DNA of 64,000 bases, taken from the sequence record MW598459. The stretch is one strand, 5' to 3'. The notes under the pieces are model-generated. The model did no database searches and was not told the DNA's origin. It saw only the letters and a program-made list of their open reading frames with translations. Of this stretch, positions 36,480 through 41,544 are shown one piece after another (the stretch's first letter is position 1; every line of letters starts with the position of its first letter). A program made the translations under genes and the position numbers. Source of the DNA: Escherichia phage vB_EcoM_RZ.

Positions 36480-36672
36480 AAGTTTTCCATGGTAATTGGA
36501 TTCGAGTTTGTTTTACAGTAAGCTCGACCTCGGGATTCAATTTTTTCAATCGGAGACATTCTTCCCAGGCGTCTGATTCGTTACTGAACGTATAGAAACG
36601 GCCGTCAATAACTACAATCTTTTTCTGATTGGTAATATTAACAATGGCCCAGGTATCGCAATAATAGCCCAT
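36472..36672 (-). CDS. Hypothetical protein (66 aa)
   Basis: ORF immediately downstream of pseT with 1 nt overlap. Confidence 0.45.
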   Translation of the reverse strand: MGYYCDTWAIVNITNQKKIVVIDGRFYTFSNESDAWEECLRLKKLNPEVELTVKQTRIQLPWKTYE

Positions 36673-37577
36673 TAAAAGTCCCCATGGTTAACTTGCCAGC
36701 ATTCAACACCAATATGGCGCCACATCTCAACGACTTGAGTGCGGTCGTCGACGGCTAATTTCACATCGTAATGTGGTGCAATTCTGTTCCAGAAAATTTC
36801 TTCCTTCACAATATCGTCTTTGCGGTCGTCACCTTGCTCGCGCTGGATATGAGTTTCCCAAGGAATTCCATACTTATCCATCCAGGCTTTGGTGGCTTCA
36901 TAATATTCCGTTGGGTTTTCTTTAGTACCAGATTCACGACCAGATACTGTAATAATACTATACCCTGCGTGATGAAGCATTTTCAGGTACTGAACAACCA
37001 TTTTGTTTGGAGCATCAGTAGACAGTTTTGCAAGCTCAAATGGTCCGCGAGCCACATGCAAAGCCAATGTTCCATCCAGGTCAAAGATAATGGCTTTTGG
37101 TTGACCAGGAGTTCCTTTATAAACCGGAAGACCAAGGAAGGTACGCATATGACCATACATGGAACGCAGAACATCAATTGGTACCGCTTTTGGACCACGG
37201 CGATTGTTGCGTTTAACTAACTCAATCCATGGAACATCAAATACTTTATATTCAACTTTCCAATTGTGTTCTTTGGCAAAGGTTTCCCATGCCAGACGGC
37301 GTTCAGGATTCAAGTTGGTGTCTGAAATAATCACACCTTTAACTGAATCGCCACCATACAAAATACCCTTCGCTGCATCAAACTGCATACAGGTTACGAT
37401 GCCTTCTTTCTTCTTGGTGTATTTGTATTCATCACGCTCTTCATGACCCATAATGGATTGGCGGTAATCATCGCGGTTAACGTTAAAATAACCAGGGTTC
37501 TTAGCGATGAATTCACGAGTCCATGTGCTCTTGCCAGAACCAGGACAACCTACAGTCAGAATAATTTTCTTCATCAT
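36672..37577 (-). CDS. pseT: Polynucleotide 5'-kinase / 3'-phosphatase (PseT)
   Basis: 301 aa, same length as T4 Pnk; near-identical ([22 protein letters not shown]...; phosphatase motif DVDGTLA appears as DLDGTLA). Confidence 0.95.
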
Positions 37578-37894
37578 TTAATTCCTAACAGAGTTTTAAG
37601 GAGCTGAATACGTAATTCAACACGTCCTTCATTTAATTCAGCTACTGCCTTATTGACAGACTTGCGTCGAGTATTGGCAGAGATAAACATAATTAAATGG
37701 TTCTTTAGCTCACCCATATCCACACCTTGAGCTTTAGCCGCCTTGCGTAGAGCCTTGCCTGCATCATCTAAGGCTTTTGCAGGGTCTTCATCATTCAATA
37801 CCAACCCGCGGTCCAAATCCAAATATACAGCGCCGCGACATGAATCAATATAATTGTCTGAACACTTGATGTAATTCTCTAATAACTCTTTCAT
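37574..37894 (-). CDS. Hypothetical protein (106 aa)
   Basis: ORF upstream of pseT with ATGA overlap. Confidence 0.5.
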
Positions 37895-38373
37895 ACACCA
37901 AGCTCCTTATAAAGTTCTTCGCGGCAAGTTTTAAGGATTTTACCAGTTTCATAAGCTGCACTTTCAGAAACATCACCAAGTGCAGCGGCAGATTGCATTT
38001 GACCATGGCGTTTAGCTGCATATTCAAAACTTTTTACTAGCTCACGAATACGTTCTTTTTCATTGTACTCTTCAATGAATTCAGGGTATTCCCAAACTGG
38101 GCGCATCATACGATACCACTGTTGGATGGTAATATAATTACTTCCATCCAGATTAATAATTTGCGAAGGCTTAATAGCGCCCGGAGCATAAAAAGTTACC
38201 TGTCTTACTACATCAATACCGTCCACCATAGCCCAAGCAAAATCGAAAGTTGCCTTCTTTTCAATTGGTGTACTTGCACAGGACCCTAATTTTAAGAGCT
38301 TTTGTAATGCAGGGGATTTAACACCTGAAATGTATTCAGGCTTAGCCACAAAACTGTTATCACGTAATGTCAT
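37891..38373 (-). CDS. Hypothetical protein (160 aa), pseT.1 position
   Basis: Start taken at the ATG at 38373 with strong GAGGA ribosome-binding site; the longer ORF-track version begins with TTG inside the promoter region. Confidence 0.5.
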   Translation of the reverse strand: MTLRDNSFVAKPEYISGVKSPALQKLLKLGSCASTPIEKKATFDFAWAMVDGIDVVRQVTFYAPGAIKPSQIINLDGSNYITIQQWYRMMRPVWEYPEFIEEYNEKERIRELVKSFEYAAKRHGQMQSAAALGDVSESAAYETGKILKTCREELYKELGV

Positions 38374-38409
38374 AATATTTTCCTCAAATATTTTATAATC
38401 CGTGGGAGC

Positions 38410-38439
38410 ATTATACTCTGCTCCCATAAGTTTGTACAC
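38410..38439 (-). promoter_or_regulatory. Early-type promoter (GTGTACA, 17 nt spacer, TATAAT) with the -10 in a hairpin loop
   Basis: Minus strand reads GTGTACAaacttatgggagcagagTATAATgctccc; GGGAGCA / TGCTCCC inverted repeat flanks the -10. Confidence 0.5.
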
Positions 38440-38542
38440 TACTTTCCAAAAAGACCTTGGACACATAAAGTGGCCGCAATTCCAAAACAAAAACAGAATG
38501 CACCAAATCTAACAATATCCCAACCAAGGCTACAGGTCTCAA

Positions 38543-39677: not shown

Positions 39678-39924
39678 AATATTTTCCTCATTAGTAGCGG
39701 TTATAACCCCGGGGACCAAAAGAGTTGGCACCCAGGCGCTCATCTTTCTTTTTGGCTCTTGCTCTAAACCCGGAATCACCTGTTTGAGCTTTCAGTTCTT
39801 TTAACAATTTGGCCTTTAGGTCAGTAATGAAACCAATCCGGCGGTCTCCCTTATAGACATAGATTCCATCATTTCTGTCACCATATGCCTTTGTAACTCT
39901 GTCATTTGTAATTAAGTTTAACAT
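39569..39924. repeat. Direct repeat (~105 bp, period 250 bp) duplicating the alc 5' coding region
   Basis: Copy 1 at 39569-39677 and copy 2 at 39819-39924 share blocks such as GGTCAGT.AT.A.ACCAAT and CCTTATAGACATA.ATTCC.TCAT...GTCACCATAT; the encoded peptides share ...YGDR.DGIYVYKG...IG..TDL.AKL.K.LKA. Confidence 0.6.
39691..39924 (-). CDS. Hypothetical protein (77 aa) paralogous to the Alc N-terminus
   Basis: Start at the ATG at 39924 downstream of an early promoter; MLNLITNDRVTKAYGDRNDGIYVYKGDRRIGFITDLKAKLLKELKAQ aligns with Alc residues 1-50. Confidence 0.5.
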   Translation of the reverse strand: MLNLITNDRVTKAYGDRNDGIYVYKGDRRIGFITDLKAKLLKELKAQTGDSGFRARAKKKDERLGANSFGPRGYNRY

Positions 39925-39955
39925 GTTTTGGTCCTCATCAGTAGTTGATGGAACC

Positions 39956-39985
39956 ATTATGTATAGAAAGAAGGGGCTTGTACAC
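39956..39985 (-). promoter_or_regulatory. Early-type promoter (GTGTACA, 17 nt spacer, CATAAT) with the -35 in a hairpin loop
   Basis: Minus strand reads aaggGGTGTACAAGcccctt...CATAAT; AAGGGG / CCCCTT stem at 39971-39990; conserved GGTTCCATCAACTACTGATGAGGA leader follows. Confidence 0.5.
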
Positions 39986-39994
39986 CCCTTTTTA

Positions 39995-41131
39995 TTATTC
40001 AGGAAGGATTACTTCCGCCTGGTAGTCTAACGGAATGTAAAGTTTATGATTTTTAAGGAAAACTTTATTGATTTGAGCAATCGTTTGTTCAGTTTCCTGT
40101 GGGCGTTGATAGGTGTTCATTAATACGGAGAACAATCCCGGATATGGTTTACATAACTCTTGACCTTTAATCGCAAACTCGCGACGGTCTTTTCCTGCTA
40201 ACTGTTTTTGTGCATCAAGCAACAGTCCAAGAGTGTTGGACAGATAATCCAGATGTGTTGCAGTAAAGGCAGTAACTTTTTCACGAGCATAAGTATCGCC
40301 AGTAAACATGGCAATAACATCATCCGCGCCGCCAGCAACAACAACTTCAAACAGTCGCTCATTATTATTAATGGAGTCTTTAGTATGATGCAGAGCACAA
40401 TACCATTCTGTTTTCATCTTGAACTTCTGACCGTTAGCCATCTCATAGACGAAGCCTTCAATCTCTTTCATACCGCGAACATTCTCAATGGTTGCCGGGT
40501 CATATGCTTCAACCAGGAAAGGACGAAGCGCTGCATCTTTGAACAGCTCCTGATAAGGAATATATTCACCAGTTTCATTATGACGAACGTTCAGTAAAAT
40601 CAGGTCACGTTCCTGGTAAGGCAAAACAATGCGGTTGGTCGGTGCAACATATTCCATGTTGCATGTATAACCAGCTTCAGTGATTTCAGTCACACGAGCC
40701 CTGAATGCACTGCGATGTTCTTGTTTAAACACCTGCAAGGATTCAGCTGCTTGGGAGCTTTTGATTGACCCTTTGGATTTAAAGGCGATATTGGTCTGGT
40801 CCATATAAGTGGAAACCAAACTACCATCAGCTTTTGCAGTAACCAGGACAACTTCATCAAGGTTAAGGTCCATGGTCATTGGATTCTCACCCAGATTAAA
40901 GAATTTTTCCATAGGACGAGCAGCAATGCGAACTGGACCATTGTCATCCATTTCAAACATAATGCCACGGCACTCCAGCGCATCATCAAGAAGCCAATCA
41001 CTATAGGAAGCATAGTTATAGCTAAAGATGCGGAACTTAGTTTCAAATGGAGAAACAAAATCCGTATAGAAAAACTTACCTTTATCGGATTCGGCACAAA
41101 GCTTCATTAAGTTATCATATAATTCAATCAT
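39995..41131 (-). CDS. rnlA: RNA ligase 1 (RnlA, gene 63)
   Basis: 378 aa (T4 Rnl1 is 374 aa); strong match (YRIFSYNYASYSDWLL.DALECRGIMFEMD...VRIA.RPMEKFFNL.ENP.TM...DGSLVSTY). Confidence 0.92.
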   Translation of the reverse strand: MIELYDNLMKLCAESDKGKFFYTDFVSPFETKFRIFSYNYASYSDWLLDDALECRGIMFEMDDNGPVRIAARPMEKFFNLGENPMTMDLNLDEVVLVTAKADGSLVSTYMDQTNIAFKSKGSIKSSQAAESLQVFKQEHRSAFRARVTEITEAGYTCNMEYVAPTNRIVLPYQERDLILLNVRHNETGEYIPYQELFKDAALRPFLVEAYDPATIENVRGMKEIEGFVYEMANGQKFKMKTEWYCALHHTKDSINNNERLFEVVVAGGADDVIAMFTGDTYAREKVTAFTATHLDYLSNTLGLLLDAQKQLAGKDRREFAIKGQELCKPYPGLFSVLMNTYQRPQETEQTIAQINKVFLKNHKLYIPLDYQAEVILPE

Positions 41132-41544
41132 TTCTTCACCTTATGTTGGTAATTCCACGGGGGATTAAAAAGCTTGATGAACATCGGCTCTTCCAGAGAC
41201 ATCGTTTCGACTGACATTGTGCCAAGTTCATTGGTCATTGACAGATTGAAACATTGTCGTGCATAGAATACCACCTTTTTGCCTTCTTGTAAAGCTTCAT
41301 GTATCATCCGGGATTTGTTTGAATCACTCGTCTGTTCGATTCGGTTAATTGCAGTCCGGTAATAGTTGATACGCTTCTTAAGGTTGTTCGTCTTACCAAT
41401 ATACACTAGTTCATCATCAACTGAAATAGCATAGATAACATTTTTCTTGTTTGCGAGAGTAAGGATAGGGATTTTATCATCGACTAACTCTAACTCCGCG
41501 TATTTTATAAAACTGTATTCGTCAGCGATTTGTTTCATAGACAA
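41128..41544 (-). CDS. denA: Endonuclease II (DenA), GIY-YIG family
   Basis: 138 aa (T4 EndoII is 136 aa); near-identical (EYSFIKY.ELEL...NVIYAI...DELVYIGKT.NL.KRINYYRTAINR...FYARQCFNLSMTNELGTM...FIKLFNPPWN.QHK). Confidence 0.9.
   Translation of the reverse strand: MSMKQIADEYSFIKYAELELVDDKIPILTLANKKNVIYAISVDDELVYIGKTNNLKKRINYYRTAINRIEQTSDSNKSRMIHEALQEGKKVVFYARQCFNLSMTNELGTMSVETMSLEEPMFIKLFNPPWNYQHKVKK

What the first reader, a model, noticed from the sequence alone, without database searches (positions are those of the whole stretch)
36672..41544. tRNA-repair and host-DNA-targeting module (Pnk, Rnl1, Alc, DenA) with Rnl2 nearby
Polynucleotide kinase and RNA ligase 1 together repair tRNA cut by host anticodon nucleases in T4. 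Alc and endonuclease II act selectively on cytosine-containing DNA, which implies this phage protects its own DNA by cytosine modification even though the modification genes lie outside the window. The module is complete here and interleaved with spanins and unknown small genes.
Basis: established knowledge. Interest (0 to 1): 0.35.

Follow-up and report, generated by a model that had tools for sequence, protein, structure and literature searches.

The report
T4-type early genes lacking cytosine-modification genes
This is the ordinary, already annotated T4-type block of RNA-repair (Pnk, Rnl1) and host-shutoff (Alc, endonuclease II) genes, but it sits in a phage genus (Gaprivervirus) whose sequenced genomes lack every known gene for modifying cytosine, so how the phage spares its own DNA is unknown.

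Summary
All four genes are real, intact and at the stated coordinates, on the minus strand: Pnk 36672-37577, Alc 39174-39677, Rnl1 39995-41131 and DenA 41128-41538. The two spanins lie between them. Rnl2 is 24 kb away (11450-12457), not nearby. The window is 96-99% identical to Gaprivervirus phage DK-13, whose genes in this block are annotated, so the block itself is already known.

DK-13 has no relative of T4 gp42, alpha- or beta-glucosyltransferase or Dam, and none of the RB69/JS98-type arabinosylation genes. The first 50 kb of VR7 lacks them too. All 31 Gaprivervirus records that cover the uvsX-gene 43 locus have its short form without these genes. A profile search finds a single thymidylate-synthase-family gene in DK-13, the normal Td.

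The genus still keeps dCTPase gp56, DenB, Ndd, DenA and Alc, and the genes tested here are under purifying selection. One published restriction analysis reports modified, unglycosylated cytosines in VR7. Two papers have already flagged this contradiction.

One thing may be new. A 77-residue copy of the Alc N-terminus (AlcB, 39691-39924) occurs only in this genus and is very strongly conserved.

The parts
36672..37577 (-). pseT: polynucleotide 5'-kinase/3'-phosphatase (Pnk), 301 aa
   Evidence: Pfam HAD_PNKP 1.9e-56 plus AAA_33; phrog_505 6e-121. 76.7% identical to T4 PseT. The P-loop (G9...K15 S16), D35, R38, R126, D165, D167, K258, D277 and D278 are all conserved. dN/dS 0.08-0.17.
37574..37894 (-). 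106-aa gene of unknown function in the pseT.1 position (JS98 orf217-like)
   Evidence: phrog_2364 3.5e-53, no Pfam match. 95% identical to JS98 orf217 but only 20% to T4 PseT.1, so not its homologue. dN/dS 0.05-0.19. Overlaps its neighbours by 4 nt on both sides.
37891..38373 (-). 160-aa accessory gene of unknown function
   Evidence: phrog_4482 2e-72, no Pfam match. Present in DK-13 and VR7, absent from SP18, JS98 and T4. Start is GAGGAAAATATT-ATG. AF2 model pLDDT 89, with no Foldseek PDB match at E <= 0.001.
38410..38438 (-). Promoter-like site TGTACA-17-TATAAT in the 169-bp gap upstream of the 160-aa gene
   Evidence: 10 of 12 consensus match; sequence read. Consensus match only; function not shown.
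38543..38833 (-). o-spanin (pseT.2 homologue), 96 aa
   Evidence: phrog_812 5e-40. Lipoprotein signal MMKSIMAVCLAIGLVSC read directly. 67% identical to T4 PseT.2.
38830..39183 (-). i-spanin (pseT.3 homologue), 117 aa
   Evidence: phrog_739 3e-36. N-terminal hydrophobic segment LTAGLMLALVVTAGSGFYL. 48% identical to T4 PseT.3. 4-nt overlap with the o-spanin gene.
39174..39677 (-). alc: Alc, terminator of transcription on cytosine DNA, 167 aa
   Evidence: Pfam ALC 1.3e-48 over the full profile; phrog_1253 3e-73. 55.7% identical to T4 Alc. dN/dS 0.05-0.12. AF2 model pLDDT 92: small N-domain, 47-residue helix, C-terminal alpha/beta domain.
39691..39924 (-). alcb: 77-aa stand-alone copy of the Alc N-terminal domain plus a basic tail
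   Evidence: Pfam ALC 4.5e-10 (profile positions 3-62); own family phrog_17715 1.5e-53. 31 of 64 residues identical to Alc residues 3-62. Keeps the residues invariant across the aligned Alc homologues: I6, G16, D20, G21, I22, G32. GAGGA lies 7 nt before the ATG at 39924. dN/dS 0-0.09. The full-length gene occurs only in the 32 Gaprivervirus records.
39971..39990 (-). G+C-rich hairpin followed by a T-rich tail between rnlA and alcb, overlapping a promoter-like site
   Evidence: Terminator-like match AAGGGGTGTACAAGCCCCTT CTTTCT and promoter-like TGTACA-17-CATAAT; sequence read. Pattern match only.
39995..41131 (-). rnlA: RNA ligase 1 (gp63), 378 aa
   Evidence: Pfam T4_Rnl1_C 8e-41 and RNA_lig_T4_1 7e-24; phrog_562 2e-138. 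52.6% identical to T4 Rnl1. R54, K75, F77, K99, D101, G102, K119, E159, E227, G228, K240 and K242 are all conserved.
41128..41538 (-). denA: endonuclease II (GIY-YIG), 136 aa
   Evidence: Pfam GIY-YIG 7e-6; phrog_1111 7e-60. 74.8% identical to T4 EndoII. G49, R57 and E118 are conserved. dN/dS 0.05-0.08. 4-nt overlap with the rnlA start.
11450..12457 (-). rnlB: RNA ligase 2, 335 aa, 24 kb from the block
   Evidence: Pfam RNA_ligase 7.5e-20 and T4_Rnl2_C 2e-17; phrog_548 4e-125. Motif I EKIHGTN with Lys35.
33962..34543 (-). cd: dCMP deaminase (context: nucleotide metabolism)
   Evidence: Pfam dCMP_cyt_deam_1 9e-27.
46620..47480 (-). td: thymidylate synthase, the only thymidylate-synthase-family gene found in close relatives
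   Evidence: Catalytic Cys (PPCH) and the dUMP-specifying Asn (THIYLNH) are present. 98.6% identical to DK-13 Td. It is the only DK-13 hit of the family HMM.

Best explanation
The interval is the conserved T4-type early-gene block denA-rnlA-alc-(spanins)-pseT of a Gaprivervirus phage (Straboviridae, Tevenvirinae).

Shown here:
- Pnk and Rnl1 are intact.
- DenA is an intact GIY-YIG endonuclease II.
- Alc is full length and under purifying selection.
- The two spanins are lysis genes that share the transcription unit.

Inferred from T4:
- Pnk and Rnl1 heal and seal tRNA cut by PrrC-type anticodon nucleases.
- DenA nicks and cuts cytosine DNA.
- Alc stops host RNA polymerase on cytosine DNA.

The block is not backed by the usual cytosine-replacement pathway. 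In the sequenced members of this genus the thymidylate-synthase-like dCMP hydroxymethylase or hydroxylase and all glycosyltransferases are missing. The cytosine-discriminating set (gp56 dCTPase, DenA, DenB, Alc, Ndd) is retained.

My commitment, which is an inference at about 55%: the phage still replaces or marks its cytosines by a route that uses none of the known enzymes, and Alc and DenA therefore still act only on host DNA. AlcB, found only in this genus, most likely tunes Alc. It could occupy the partner of the Alc N-domain or pair with Alc's long helix. That is a hypothesis and has not been shown.
For: - Gene identities, active sites and selection.
- Same gene order in T4, JS98, SP18, VR7 and DK-13.
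- The window is colinear with DK-13 at 96-99% identity.
- No gp42, glucosyltransferase, Dam or arabinosylation gene in DK-13 or in VR7 1-50 kb.
- One thymidylate-synthase-family gene in DK-13 against two in JS98.
- The short uvsX-gene 43 locus in all 31 Gaprivervirus records that cover it.
- The JS98 4.3-kb cluster orf38-43 has almost no counterpart in DK-13; only orf43 has a match.
- gp56 is 79.5% identical to T4's; DenB (with Ser176) and Ndd are retained.
- Literature: Gaprivervirus lacks the hmC enzyme but has Alc, DenA, DenB and dCTPase (PMC8056088 and PMC12115623).
- Literature: VR7 DNA has 'modified cytosines' and is unglycosylated (PMC6326788).
- Literature: in earlier genome sets alc and denB had the same distribution as gene 42 (PMC2993671).
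- AlcB is restricted to the genus and 96-100% identical across it.
Against: - The rest of this phage's genome is not in the window. Absence of modification genes is inferred from relatives (97% identical and below), not observed for this isolate.
- The only experimental support for modified cytosine is one restriction-digest figure for VR7. No chemical identification exists.
- No candidate modifying enzyme was found among DK-13 genes that lack a JS98 counterpart. That fits unmodified DNA equally well.
- VR7 is fully restricted by BREX, like phages without glycosylated DNA.
- DK-13 DenB is only 44.8% identical to T4 DenB, against 72% for JS98, so its specificity may have changed.
- Nothing tested here bears on what AlcB does.
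Confidence: 0.8

Rival explanations
1. The phage makes hydroxymethylcytosine and glucosylates it as T4 does, with gene 42 and the glucosyltransferase genes simply lying outside the 64-kb window.
For: In T4 gene order these genes would lie outside this window. Alc, DenA, DenB and gp56 normally travel with gene 42 (PMC2993671).
Against: There are no homologues of gp42, alpha-gt or beta-gt anywhere in DK-13, and none in VR7 1-50 kb, which contains all the canonical loci. The same short locus is seen in all 31 Gaprivervirus records that cover it. Two papers agree. VR7 DNA is reported as unglycosylated.
Confidence: 0.03
2. The phage DNA contains ordinary cytosine. Self-sparing comes from changed proteins rather than a changed base. 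Alc would be held in check or redirected by its truncated paralogue AlcB, DenB and DenA would have altered specificity or timing, and gp56 would act mainly as a dUTPase.
For: No modification enzyme of any known family was found. AlcB occurs exactly and only in the genus that lost the thymidylate-synthase-like gene, and it is extremely conserved. DenB has diverged unusually (44.8% identity to T4). BREX fully restricts VR7. Cytosine-DNA phages such as RB49 and RB43 also keep DenA and gp56 homologues (PMC8056088).
Against: The VR7 restriction analysis reported modified cytosines. gp56 is 79.5% identical to the T4 dCTPase. Alc and DenA are well conserved and constrained. In T4 genetics (established knowledge) the combination 42- 56+ denB+ alc+ is not viable. 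C-containing palindromes are no more avoided in DK-13 than in the hypermodified JS98, though this is weak evidence.
Confidence: 0.25
3. The alc, alcb and denA genes are decaying leftovers of an ancestor that had modified DNA and no longer function.
For: The modification cluster present in the sister genus Dhakavirus is missing here. alcb looks like a gene fragment.
Against: All reading frames are intact in window, DK-13, SP18 and VR7, and the gene matches in all 32 records that carry it. dN/dS is 0.05-0.12 for alc, 0-0.09 for alcb and 0.05-0.08 for denA at dS up to 0.29. The catalytic residues of DenA and the invariant residues of Alc are kept. Both alc genes have good ribosome-binding sites.
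Confidence: 0.02

Closest known systems
Bacteriophage T4 region nrdB-denA-rnlA(63)-alc-pseT.3-pseT.2-pseT.1-pseT (NC_000866, 134.0-138.0 kb)
   Same: Same gene order and strand, and the same enzymes with all checked catalytic residues. Identities are Pnk 77%, DenA 75%, Alc 56% and Rnl1 53%. The spanin pair sits between alc and pseT.
   Different: T4 has no alcb and no 160-aa gene, and its pseT.1 is unrelated to the gene in that position here. T4 backs this block with gene 42, alpha-gt, beta-gt and dam, none of which has a homologue in the close relatives of this window.
Gaprivervirus genomes DK-13 (MT611523), SP18 (GQ981382, genes annotated alca and alcb) and VR7 (HM563683)
   Same: DNA identity over 36000-42000 is 97% (DK-13), 94% (SP18) and 89% (VR7). 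All genes of the block are present, including alcb, which is annotated in SP18 as 'similar to N-terminal region of JS98 Alc'.
   Different: SP18 lacks the 160-aa gene. SP18 and VR7 carry a mobile nuclease gene next to pseT that the window lacks. The homing endonuclease between nrdA and nrdB differs from DK-13's.
Dhakavirus JS98 (NC_010105), sister genus
   Same: Same block order pseT-orf217-pseT.2-pseT.3-alc-rnlA-denA. The orf217 homologue is 95% identical.
   Different: JS98 has no alcb; its alc is followed directly by rnlA. JS98 carries the RB69-type cluster orf38-43 between uvsX and imm. That cluster includes a thymidylate-synthase homologue, which in RB69 makes 5-hydroxy-dCMP for arabinosylation (PMC13326640). 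Of that cluster only orf43 has a match in DK-13 and VR7.
T4 MotA C-terminal 'double wing' DNA-binding domain (PDB 1kaf, 5jlt)
   Same: It is the best structural match to the predicted C-terminal domain of Alc. PDB: E 7e-3, probability 1.0, target-normalised TM 0.55. Predicted viral structures: MotA of Acj61 E 8.7e-4 and of Bp7 E 8.6e-3.
   Different: Sequence identity is only 12-14%, and no PDB match reaches E <= 0.001. This is a resemblance between a predicted model and a solved fold, not evidence of shared function.

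Membership tests
T4 polynucleotide kinase/phosphatase (PseT) | N-terminal P-loop kinase (GxxGxGKS) with Asp35, Arg38 and Arg126 | tested here: met
   AAA_33 7e-20. All listed residues align identically with T4 PseT.
T4 polynucleotide kinase/phosphatase (PseT) | C-terminal HAD-type 3'-phosphatase with the DxDGT nucleophile motif (Asp165, Asp167) | tested here: met
   HAD_PNKP 1.9e-56 over the full profile. DLDGT is present, and K258, D277 and D278 are conserved.
T4 polynucleotide kinase/phosphatase (PseT) | Heals 2',3'-cyclic phosphate and 5'-OH ends of cleaved tRNA in vivo | not testable with these tools
   Needs enzyme assays or growth on a prrC+ host.
RNA ligase 1 (Rnl1, T4 gp63) | Nucleotidyltransferase motifs with the adenylylated Lys99 (KxDG) and essential R54, K75, F77, K119, E159, E227, G228, K240 and K242 | tested here: met
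   All twelve positions are conserved in the alignment with T4 Rnl1. RNA_lig_T4_1 7e-24.
RNA ligase 1 (Rnl1, T4 gp63) | Rnl1-specific C-terminal domain | tested here: met
   T4_Rnl1_C 8.3e-41, profile positions 1-122 of 122.
Alc (Pfam PF17527) | Full-length match to the Alc family, about 167 aa, located between rnlA and the spanin genes | tested here: met
   Profile positions 1-176 of 177, E 1.3e-48. 55.7% identical to T4 Alc. Synteny shown.
Alc (Pfam PF17527) | Terminates E. coli RNA polymerase on cytosine DNA but not on modified DNA | not testable with these tools
   Needs in vitro transcription. The question is especially open here because the genus lacks the known modification genes.
Endonuclease II (DenA, GIY-YIG) | GIY-YIG core with conserved Gly49, Arg57 and catalytic Glu118 | tested here: met
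   GIY-YIG 7e-6. IYAI...YIGK, KKRINYY and LEEP align with T4. 74.8% identity.
RNA ligase 2 (Rnl2) | Motif I KxHGxN with Lys35, plus the Rnl2 C-terminal domain | tested here: met
   EKIHGTN at residues 34-40. RNA_ligase 7.5e-20 and T4_Rnl2_C 2e-17.
Two-component spanin | i-spanin with an N-terminal transmembrane segment, followed by an o-spanin with a lipoprotein signal and lipobox Cys | tested here: met
   phrog_739 and phrog_812. The hydrophobic N-terminus and the LVSC lipobox were read. The two genes overlap by 4 nt.
T-even cytosine-replacement system (gp56, gp42, gp1, glycosyltransferases) | A thymidylate-synthase-family dCMP hydroxymethylase (gp42) or 5-hydroxy-dCMP synthase | tested here: not met
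   Not in the window, in DK-13 or in VR7 1-50 kb by tblastn. The family HMM finds only Td in DK-13. This was tested in relatives; the rest of this isolate's genome is unavailable.
T-even cytosine-replacement system (gp56, gp42, gp1, glycosyltransferases) | DNA glucosyl- or arabinosyltransferases and the sugar-nucleotide genes | tested here: not met
   No match to T4 alpha-gt or beta-gt or to JS98 orf38-42 in DK-13, VR7 1-50 kb or the window.
T-even cytosine-replacement system (gp56, gp42, gp1, glycosyltransferases) | dCTPase gp56 and dNMP kinase gp1 | tested here: met
   DK-13 gp56 is 79.5% identical to T4's and VR7's is 76%. A dNMP kinase is annotated in DK-13. Both lie outside the window.

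The most novel reading that the evidence does not exclude
Gapriverviruses tell their own DNA from host DNA without any thymidylate-synthase-family dCMP-modifying enzyme. Either they make a cytosine derivative by an enzyme family not yet linked to DNA modification, or they protect their own transcription from Alc through the genus-specific truncated paralogue AlcB. AlcB would then be a built-in modulator of a host-shutoff factor.
Probability: 0.35. Interest if true: 0.75.

Novelty: already known. Interest (0 to 1): 0.4.

Why it matters
The block itself adds nothing new, because every gene has annotated orthologues in more than 30 genomes. Its setting is what matters. In T4 genetics, keeping gp56, DenB and Alc without gene 42 is a lethal combination, yet a whole genus of therapeutically used coliphages has exactly that gene set.

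Resolving this would either reveal a new DNA-modification chemistry or show that Alc, DenA and DenB can be retargeted. It also bears on how these phages fare against restriction, BREX and type IV systems, and on how often they transduce. Published work has left their suitability for therapy open for that reason (PMC12115623).

The perfect co-occurrence of AlcB with loss of the thymidylate-synthase-like gene gives a concrete, cheap experiment.

Tried and rejected
1. The 277-aa ORF overlapping the end of gp56 in DK-13, as a replacement dCMP-modifying enzyme. It is a homing endonuclease (phrog_655 6e-30), with no PDB sequence match.
2. A weak Td-like tblastn hit (E 0.31) at the empty gene-42 locus, as a relic of gene 42. 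The ORF is a 42-aa hydrophobic peptide, not a thymidylate-synthase fragment.
3. Td acting as a dCMP methylase. It keeps the dUMP-specifying Asn and the catalytic Cys, so it is an ordinary thymidylate synthase.
4. Large hypothetical proteins of the nrdC-tk region of DK-13. They are DUF7235, an RlaP-like nucleotidyltransferase, y05I, a tail-needle-knob protein and unknowns shared with T4 or JS98. No methyltransferase or glycosyltransferase was found.
5. All DK-13 stretches and ORFs without a JS98 counterpart (tblastx and tblastn). They are homing endonucleases, NrdD/NrdG, internal head proteins and small ORFs. Pfam and PHROG searches of ten of them gave no enzyme.
6. VR7ORF006c. It has an EndoVII/HNH-like motif and is therefore a mobile nuclease.
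7. The fold of the 160-aa gene. The model is confident but has no informative match.
8. Avoidance of C-containing palindromes as a proxy for unmodified DNA. There is no difference between DK-13 and JS98, so the test is uninformative.
9. Literature searches for a solved Gaprivervirus modification or a description of its GATC depletion. None was found in the held library. The original VR5/VR7/VR20 paper (PubMed id 20361343) is not held.

Full report
**What is there**

The interval 36672-41544 is densely packed with minus-strand genes. Pfam and PHROG searches identify the following:

| Gene | Window coordinates | Evidence |
|---|---|---|
| Pnk | 36672-37577 | HAD_PNKP 1.9e-56 plus P-loop kinase |
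| Unknown, 106 aa | 37574-37894 | phrog_2364 |
| Unknown, 160 aa | 37891-38373 | phrog_4482 |
| o-spanin | 38543-38833 | phrog_812 |
| i-spanin | 38830-39183 | phrog_739 |
| Alc | 39174-39677 | Pfam ALC 1.3e-48 |
| Second alc-related ORF (AlcB) | 39691-39924 | Pfam ALC 4.5e-10 |
| Rnl1 | 39995-41131 | T4_Rnl1_C 8e-41 |
| DenA | 41128-41538 | GIY-YIG; phrog_1111 7e-60 |

Rnl2 is real but lies at 11450-12457, 24 kb away beside gene 24.

Megablast places the window in the genus Gaprivervirus. Identity over 36000-42000 is 97% to Escherichia phage DK-13, 94% to SP18 and 89% to VR7. The whole window is colinear with DK-13 at 96-99%. Every gene of the block is already called in those records, though several, including alcb in DK-13, are labelled only 'hypothetical protein'. 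SP18 names the two alc genes alca and alcb. T4 has the same order: denA-rnlA-alc-pseT.3-pseT.2-pseT.1-pseT.

**Are the genes functional?**

The window proteins were aligned with their T4 counterparts.
- Pnk is 76.7% identical. It keeps the P-loop, D35, R38, R126, the DxDGT phosphatase motif, K258, D277 and D278.
- Rnl1 is 52.6% identical and keeps all twelve residues checked, including Lys99.
- DenA is 74.8% identical and keeps G49, R57 and E118.
- Rnl2 has Lys35 in EKIHGTN.

Pairwise dN/dS against DK-13, SP18 and VR7 is 0.04-0.17 for pnk, rnlA, denA, alc and alcb.

The junctions overlap by 4 or 10 nt in three runs: denA/rnlA; alc/i-spanin/o-spanin; and the 160-aa gene/106-aa gene/pnk. The only gaps carry a hairpin plus promoter-like site before alcb and a TGTACA-17-TATAAT site before the 160-aa gene. 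These are pattern matches only.

**The interpretation**

The stated refutation was the absence of such genes. I read the full annotation of DK-13 and searched it directly.

- T4 gp42, beta-gt, alpha-gt and Dam give no tblastn match better than E 0.3.
- T4 gp56 matches at 79.5% identity.
- Between uvsX and gene 43, T4 has beta-gt and gene 42. JS98 has a 4.3-kb RB69-type cluster there. DK-13 has only a 42-aa membrane peptide and an imm.1-like lipoprotein next to imm.
- All 31 Gaprivervirus records that cover this locus share the short form.
- VR7's first 50 kb spans the loci where T4 carries gene 42, beta-gt, alpha-gt and dam. It also lacks gp42, the glucosyltransferases, Dam and JS98 orf38-42.
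- An HMM built from T4 gp42, JS98 orf39 and two Td proteins finds two family members in JS98 but only Td in DK-13.
- That Td carries the dUMP-specific Asn.

Two papers state the same for the genus and suggest an unknown non-canonical base (PMC8056088 and PMC12115623). Petrov et al. 2010 had found alc and denB to have the same distribution as gene 42. Gaprivervirus breaks that rule.

A 2026 paper shows that the RB69-type thymidylate-synthase homologue makes 5-hydroxy-dCMP for arabinosylation. It lists Dhakavirus, but not Gaprivervirus, among the genera with that cluster.

**Evidence that the DNA is nevertheless special**

- DK-13 keeps gp56, DenB (44.8% identical to T4, with Ser176 present), Ndd (62%) and a dNMP kinase.
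- Gordeeva et al. 2019 digested VR7 DNA with modification-sensitive enzymes, with and without T4 beta-glucosyltransferase. They concluded that 'VR7 has modified cytosines' and that the DNA is not glycosylated. BREX fully restricted VR7 (PMC6326788).

That is a single indirect experiment, and no chemical identification was found in the library.

**Search for a replacement enzyme**

I compared DK-13 with JS98 by tblastx and ORF-level tblastn. The DK-13-specific material consists of homing endonucleases, NrdD/NrdG, internal head proteins and small ORFs. Pfam and PHROG searches of these and of the larger hypothetical proteins gave no methyltransferase, thymidylate-synthase-like enzyme, glycosyltransferase or other candidate.

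The contradiction therefore stands unresolved. I rate 'unknown modification' at about 55% and 'canonical cytosine with retuned or neutralised proteins' at about 25%.

**AlcB**

- The 88-aa ORF is really a 77-aa gene. GAGGA lies 7 nt before the ATG at 39924, while the upstream ATG sits inside the promoter-like -10 element.
- It is 31/64 identical to Alc residues 3-62. It keeps the residues that are invariant across the aligned Alc homologues (I6, G16, D20, G21, I22, G32), then ends in a basic tail.
- tblastn finds a full-length AlcB in 32 phage records, each of which also has a complete Alc. They are the same records that lack the thymidylate-synthase-like gene. All other records among the 613 with a match hit only through their own Alc N-terminus. 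JS98 has none.
- AlcB is 96-100% identical across the genus, even where the neighbouring Pnk falls to 78%.
- An AlphaFold model of Alc (pLDDT 92) shows a small N-domain, a 47-residue helix and a C-terminal alpha/beta domain. AlcB corresponds to the N-domain plus the first half of the helix.
- The C-domain's best structural matches are the T4 MotA double-wing DNA-binding domain. The PDB match has E 7e-3 and target-normalised TM 0.55. The match to the predicted MotA of Acj61 has E 8.7e-4. This is suggestive but weak.

A stand-alone N-domain without the putative DNA-reading domain could compete with or pair with Alc. That is inference only.

**Other items**

- The 160-aa gene is variable: present in the window, DK-13 and VR7; absent in SP18, JS98 and T4. 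It has homologues in other T4-like phages, a confident model (pLDDT 89) and no fold match.
- DK-13 carries an unannotated stp peptide, consistent with T4-like interplay with the host prr system.

**Verdict**

The functional reading of the four enzymes is well supported by homology. The specific inference about modification genes elsewhere is contradicted for all known genes. The underlying biological question has already been raised in print and remains open.

Interest is moderate. The score rests on that open question and on the AlcB correlation, not on the block itself.

Noticed in passing
window 1-64000 (also DK-13, VR7 and JS98 loci): The tetramer GATC is completely absent from the 64-kb window. 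About 216 copies are expected from a second-order Markov model, and GATC has the lowest observed/expected ratio of all 256 tetramers. DK-13 has 3 in 172 kb, VR7 has 2 in its first 50 kb and JS98 has 22 in 170 kb, while T4 pieces have about 1.1 per kb. DK-13, JS98 and VR7's first 50 kb show no match to T4 dam. From memory, counter-selection of GATC in enterobacteriophages is a known phenomenon (Deschavanne and Radman 1991). It means MboI-type digests say nothing about modification in these phages.
   Followed up: partly
window 39174-39677: The predicted structure of Alc (pLDDT 92) has a C-terminal domain whose best matches are the T4 MotA C-terminal 'double wing' DNA-binding domain. The matches are PDB 1kaf and 5jlt at E 7e-3, and the predicted MotA of Acj61 at E 8.7e-4. 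This could be the part of Alc that reads the DNA. I found no description of it in the library searched.
   Followed up: partly
window 42740-43468: A 242-aa free-standing homing endonuclease (HNH-type N-terminus, NUMOD1 1.8e-8) sits between nrdA and nrdB, in the position of T4 mobE. DK-13 has a different sequence at this spot. Window-to-DK-13 colinearity breaks at 42748-43304.
   Followed up: partly
window 16220-16241 junction (DK-13 31296-31965): DK-13 carries a 231-aa homing endonuclease after uvsW that the window lacks. SP18 and VR7 carry a mobile nuclease next to pseT that the window also lacks. Mobile nuclease content differs between otherwise near-identical genomes.
   Followed up: no
window 3018-3623: A 201-aa GTG-start ORF lies between the tail sheath and tail tube genes (gp19.1 in DK-13). 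It has no JS98 counterpart and no Pfam match; it matches phrog_5104 of unknown function. It contains a CxCxxC motif.
   Followed up: partly
L003 8354-8947 (DK-13 denB, outside the window): Gaprivervirus DenB is only 44.8% identical to T4 DenB, while JS98 DenB is 72% identical. Most other shared enzymes are 75-80% identical to T4. Ser176, reported as crucial for dC-specific cleavage, is retained. This unusual divergence may relate to the missing modification pathway.
   Followed up: partly
DK-13 83956-84030 (L003 5956-6030), outside the window: An unannotated ORF is 25/25 identical to the JS98 Stp peptide, the activator of the host PrrC anticodon nuclease. It lies next to ndd.
   Followed up: partly
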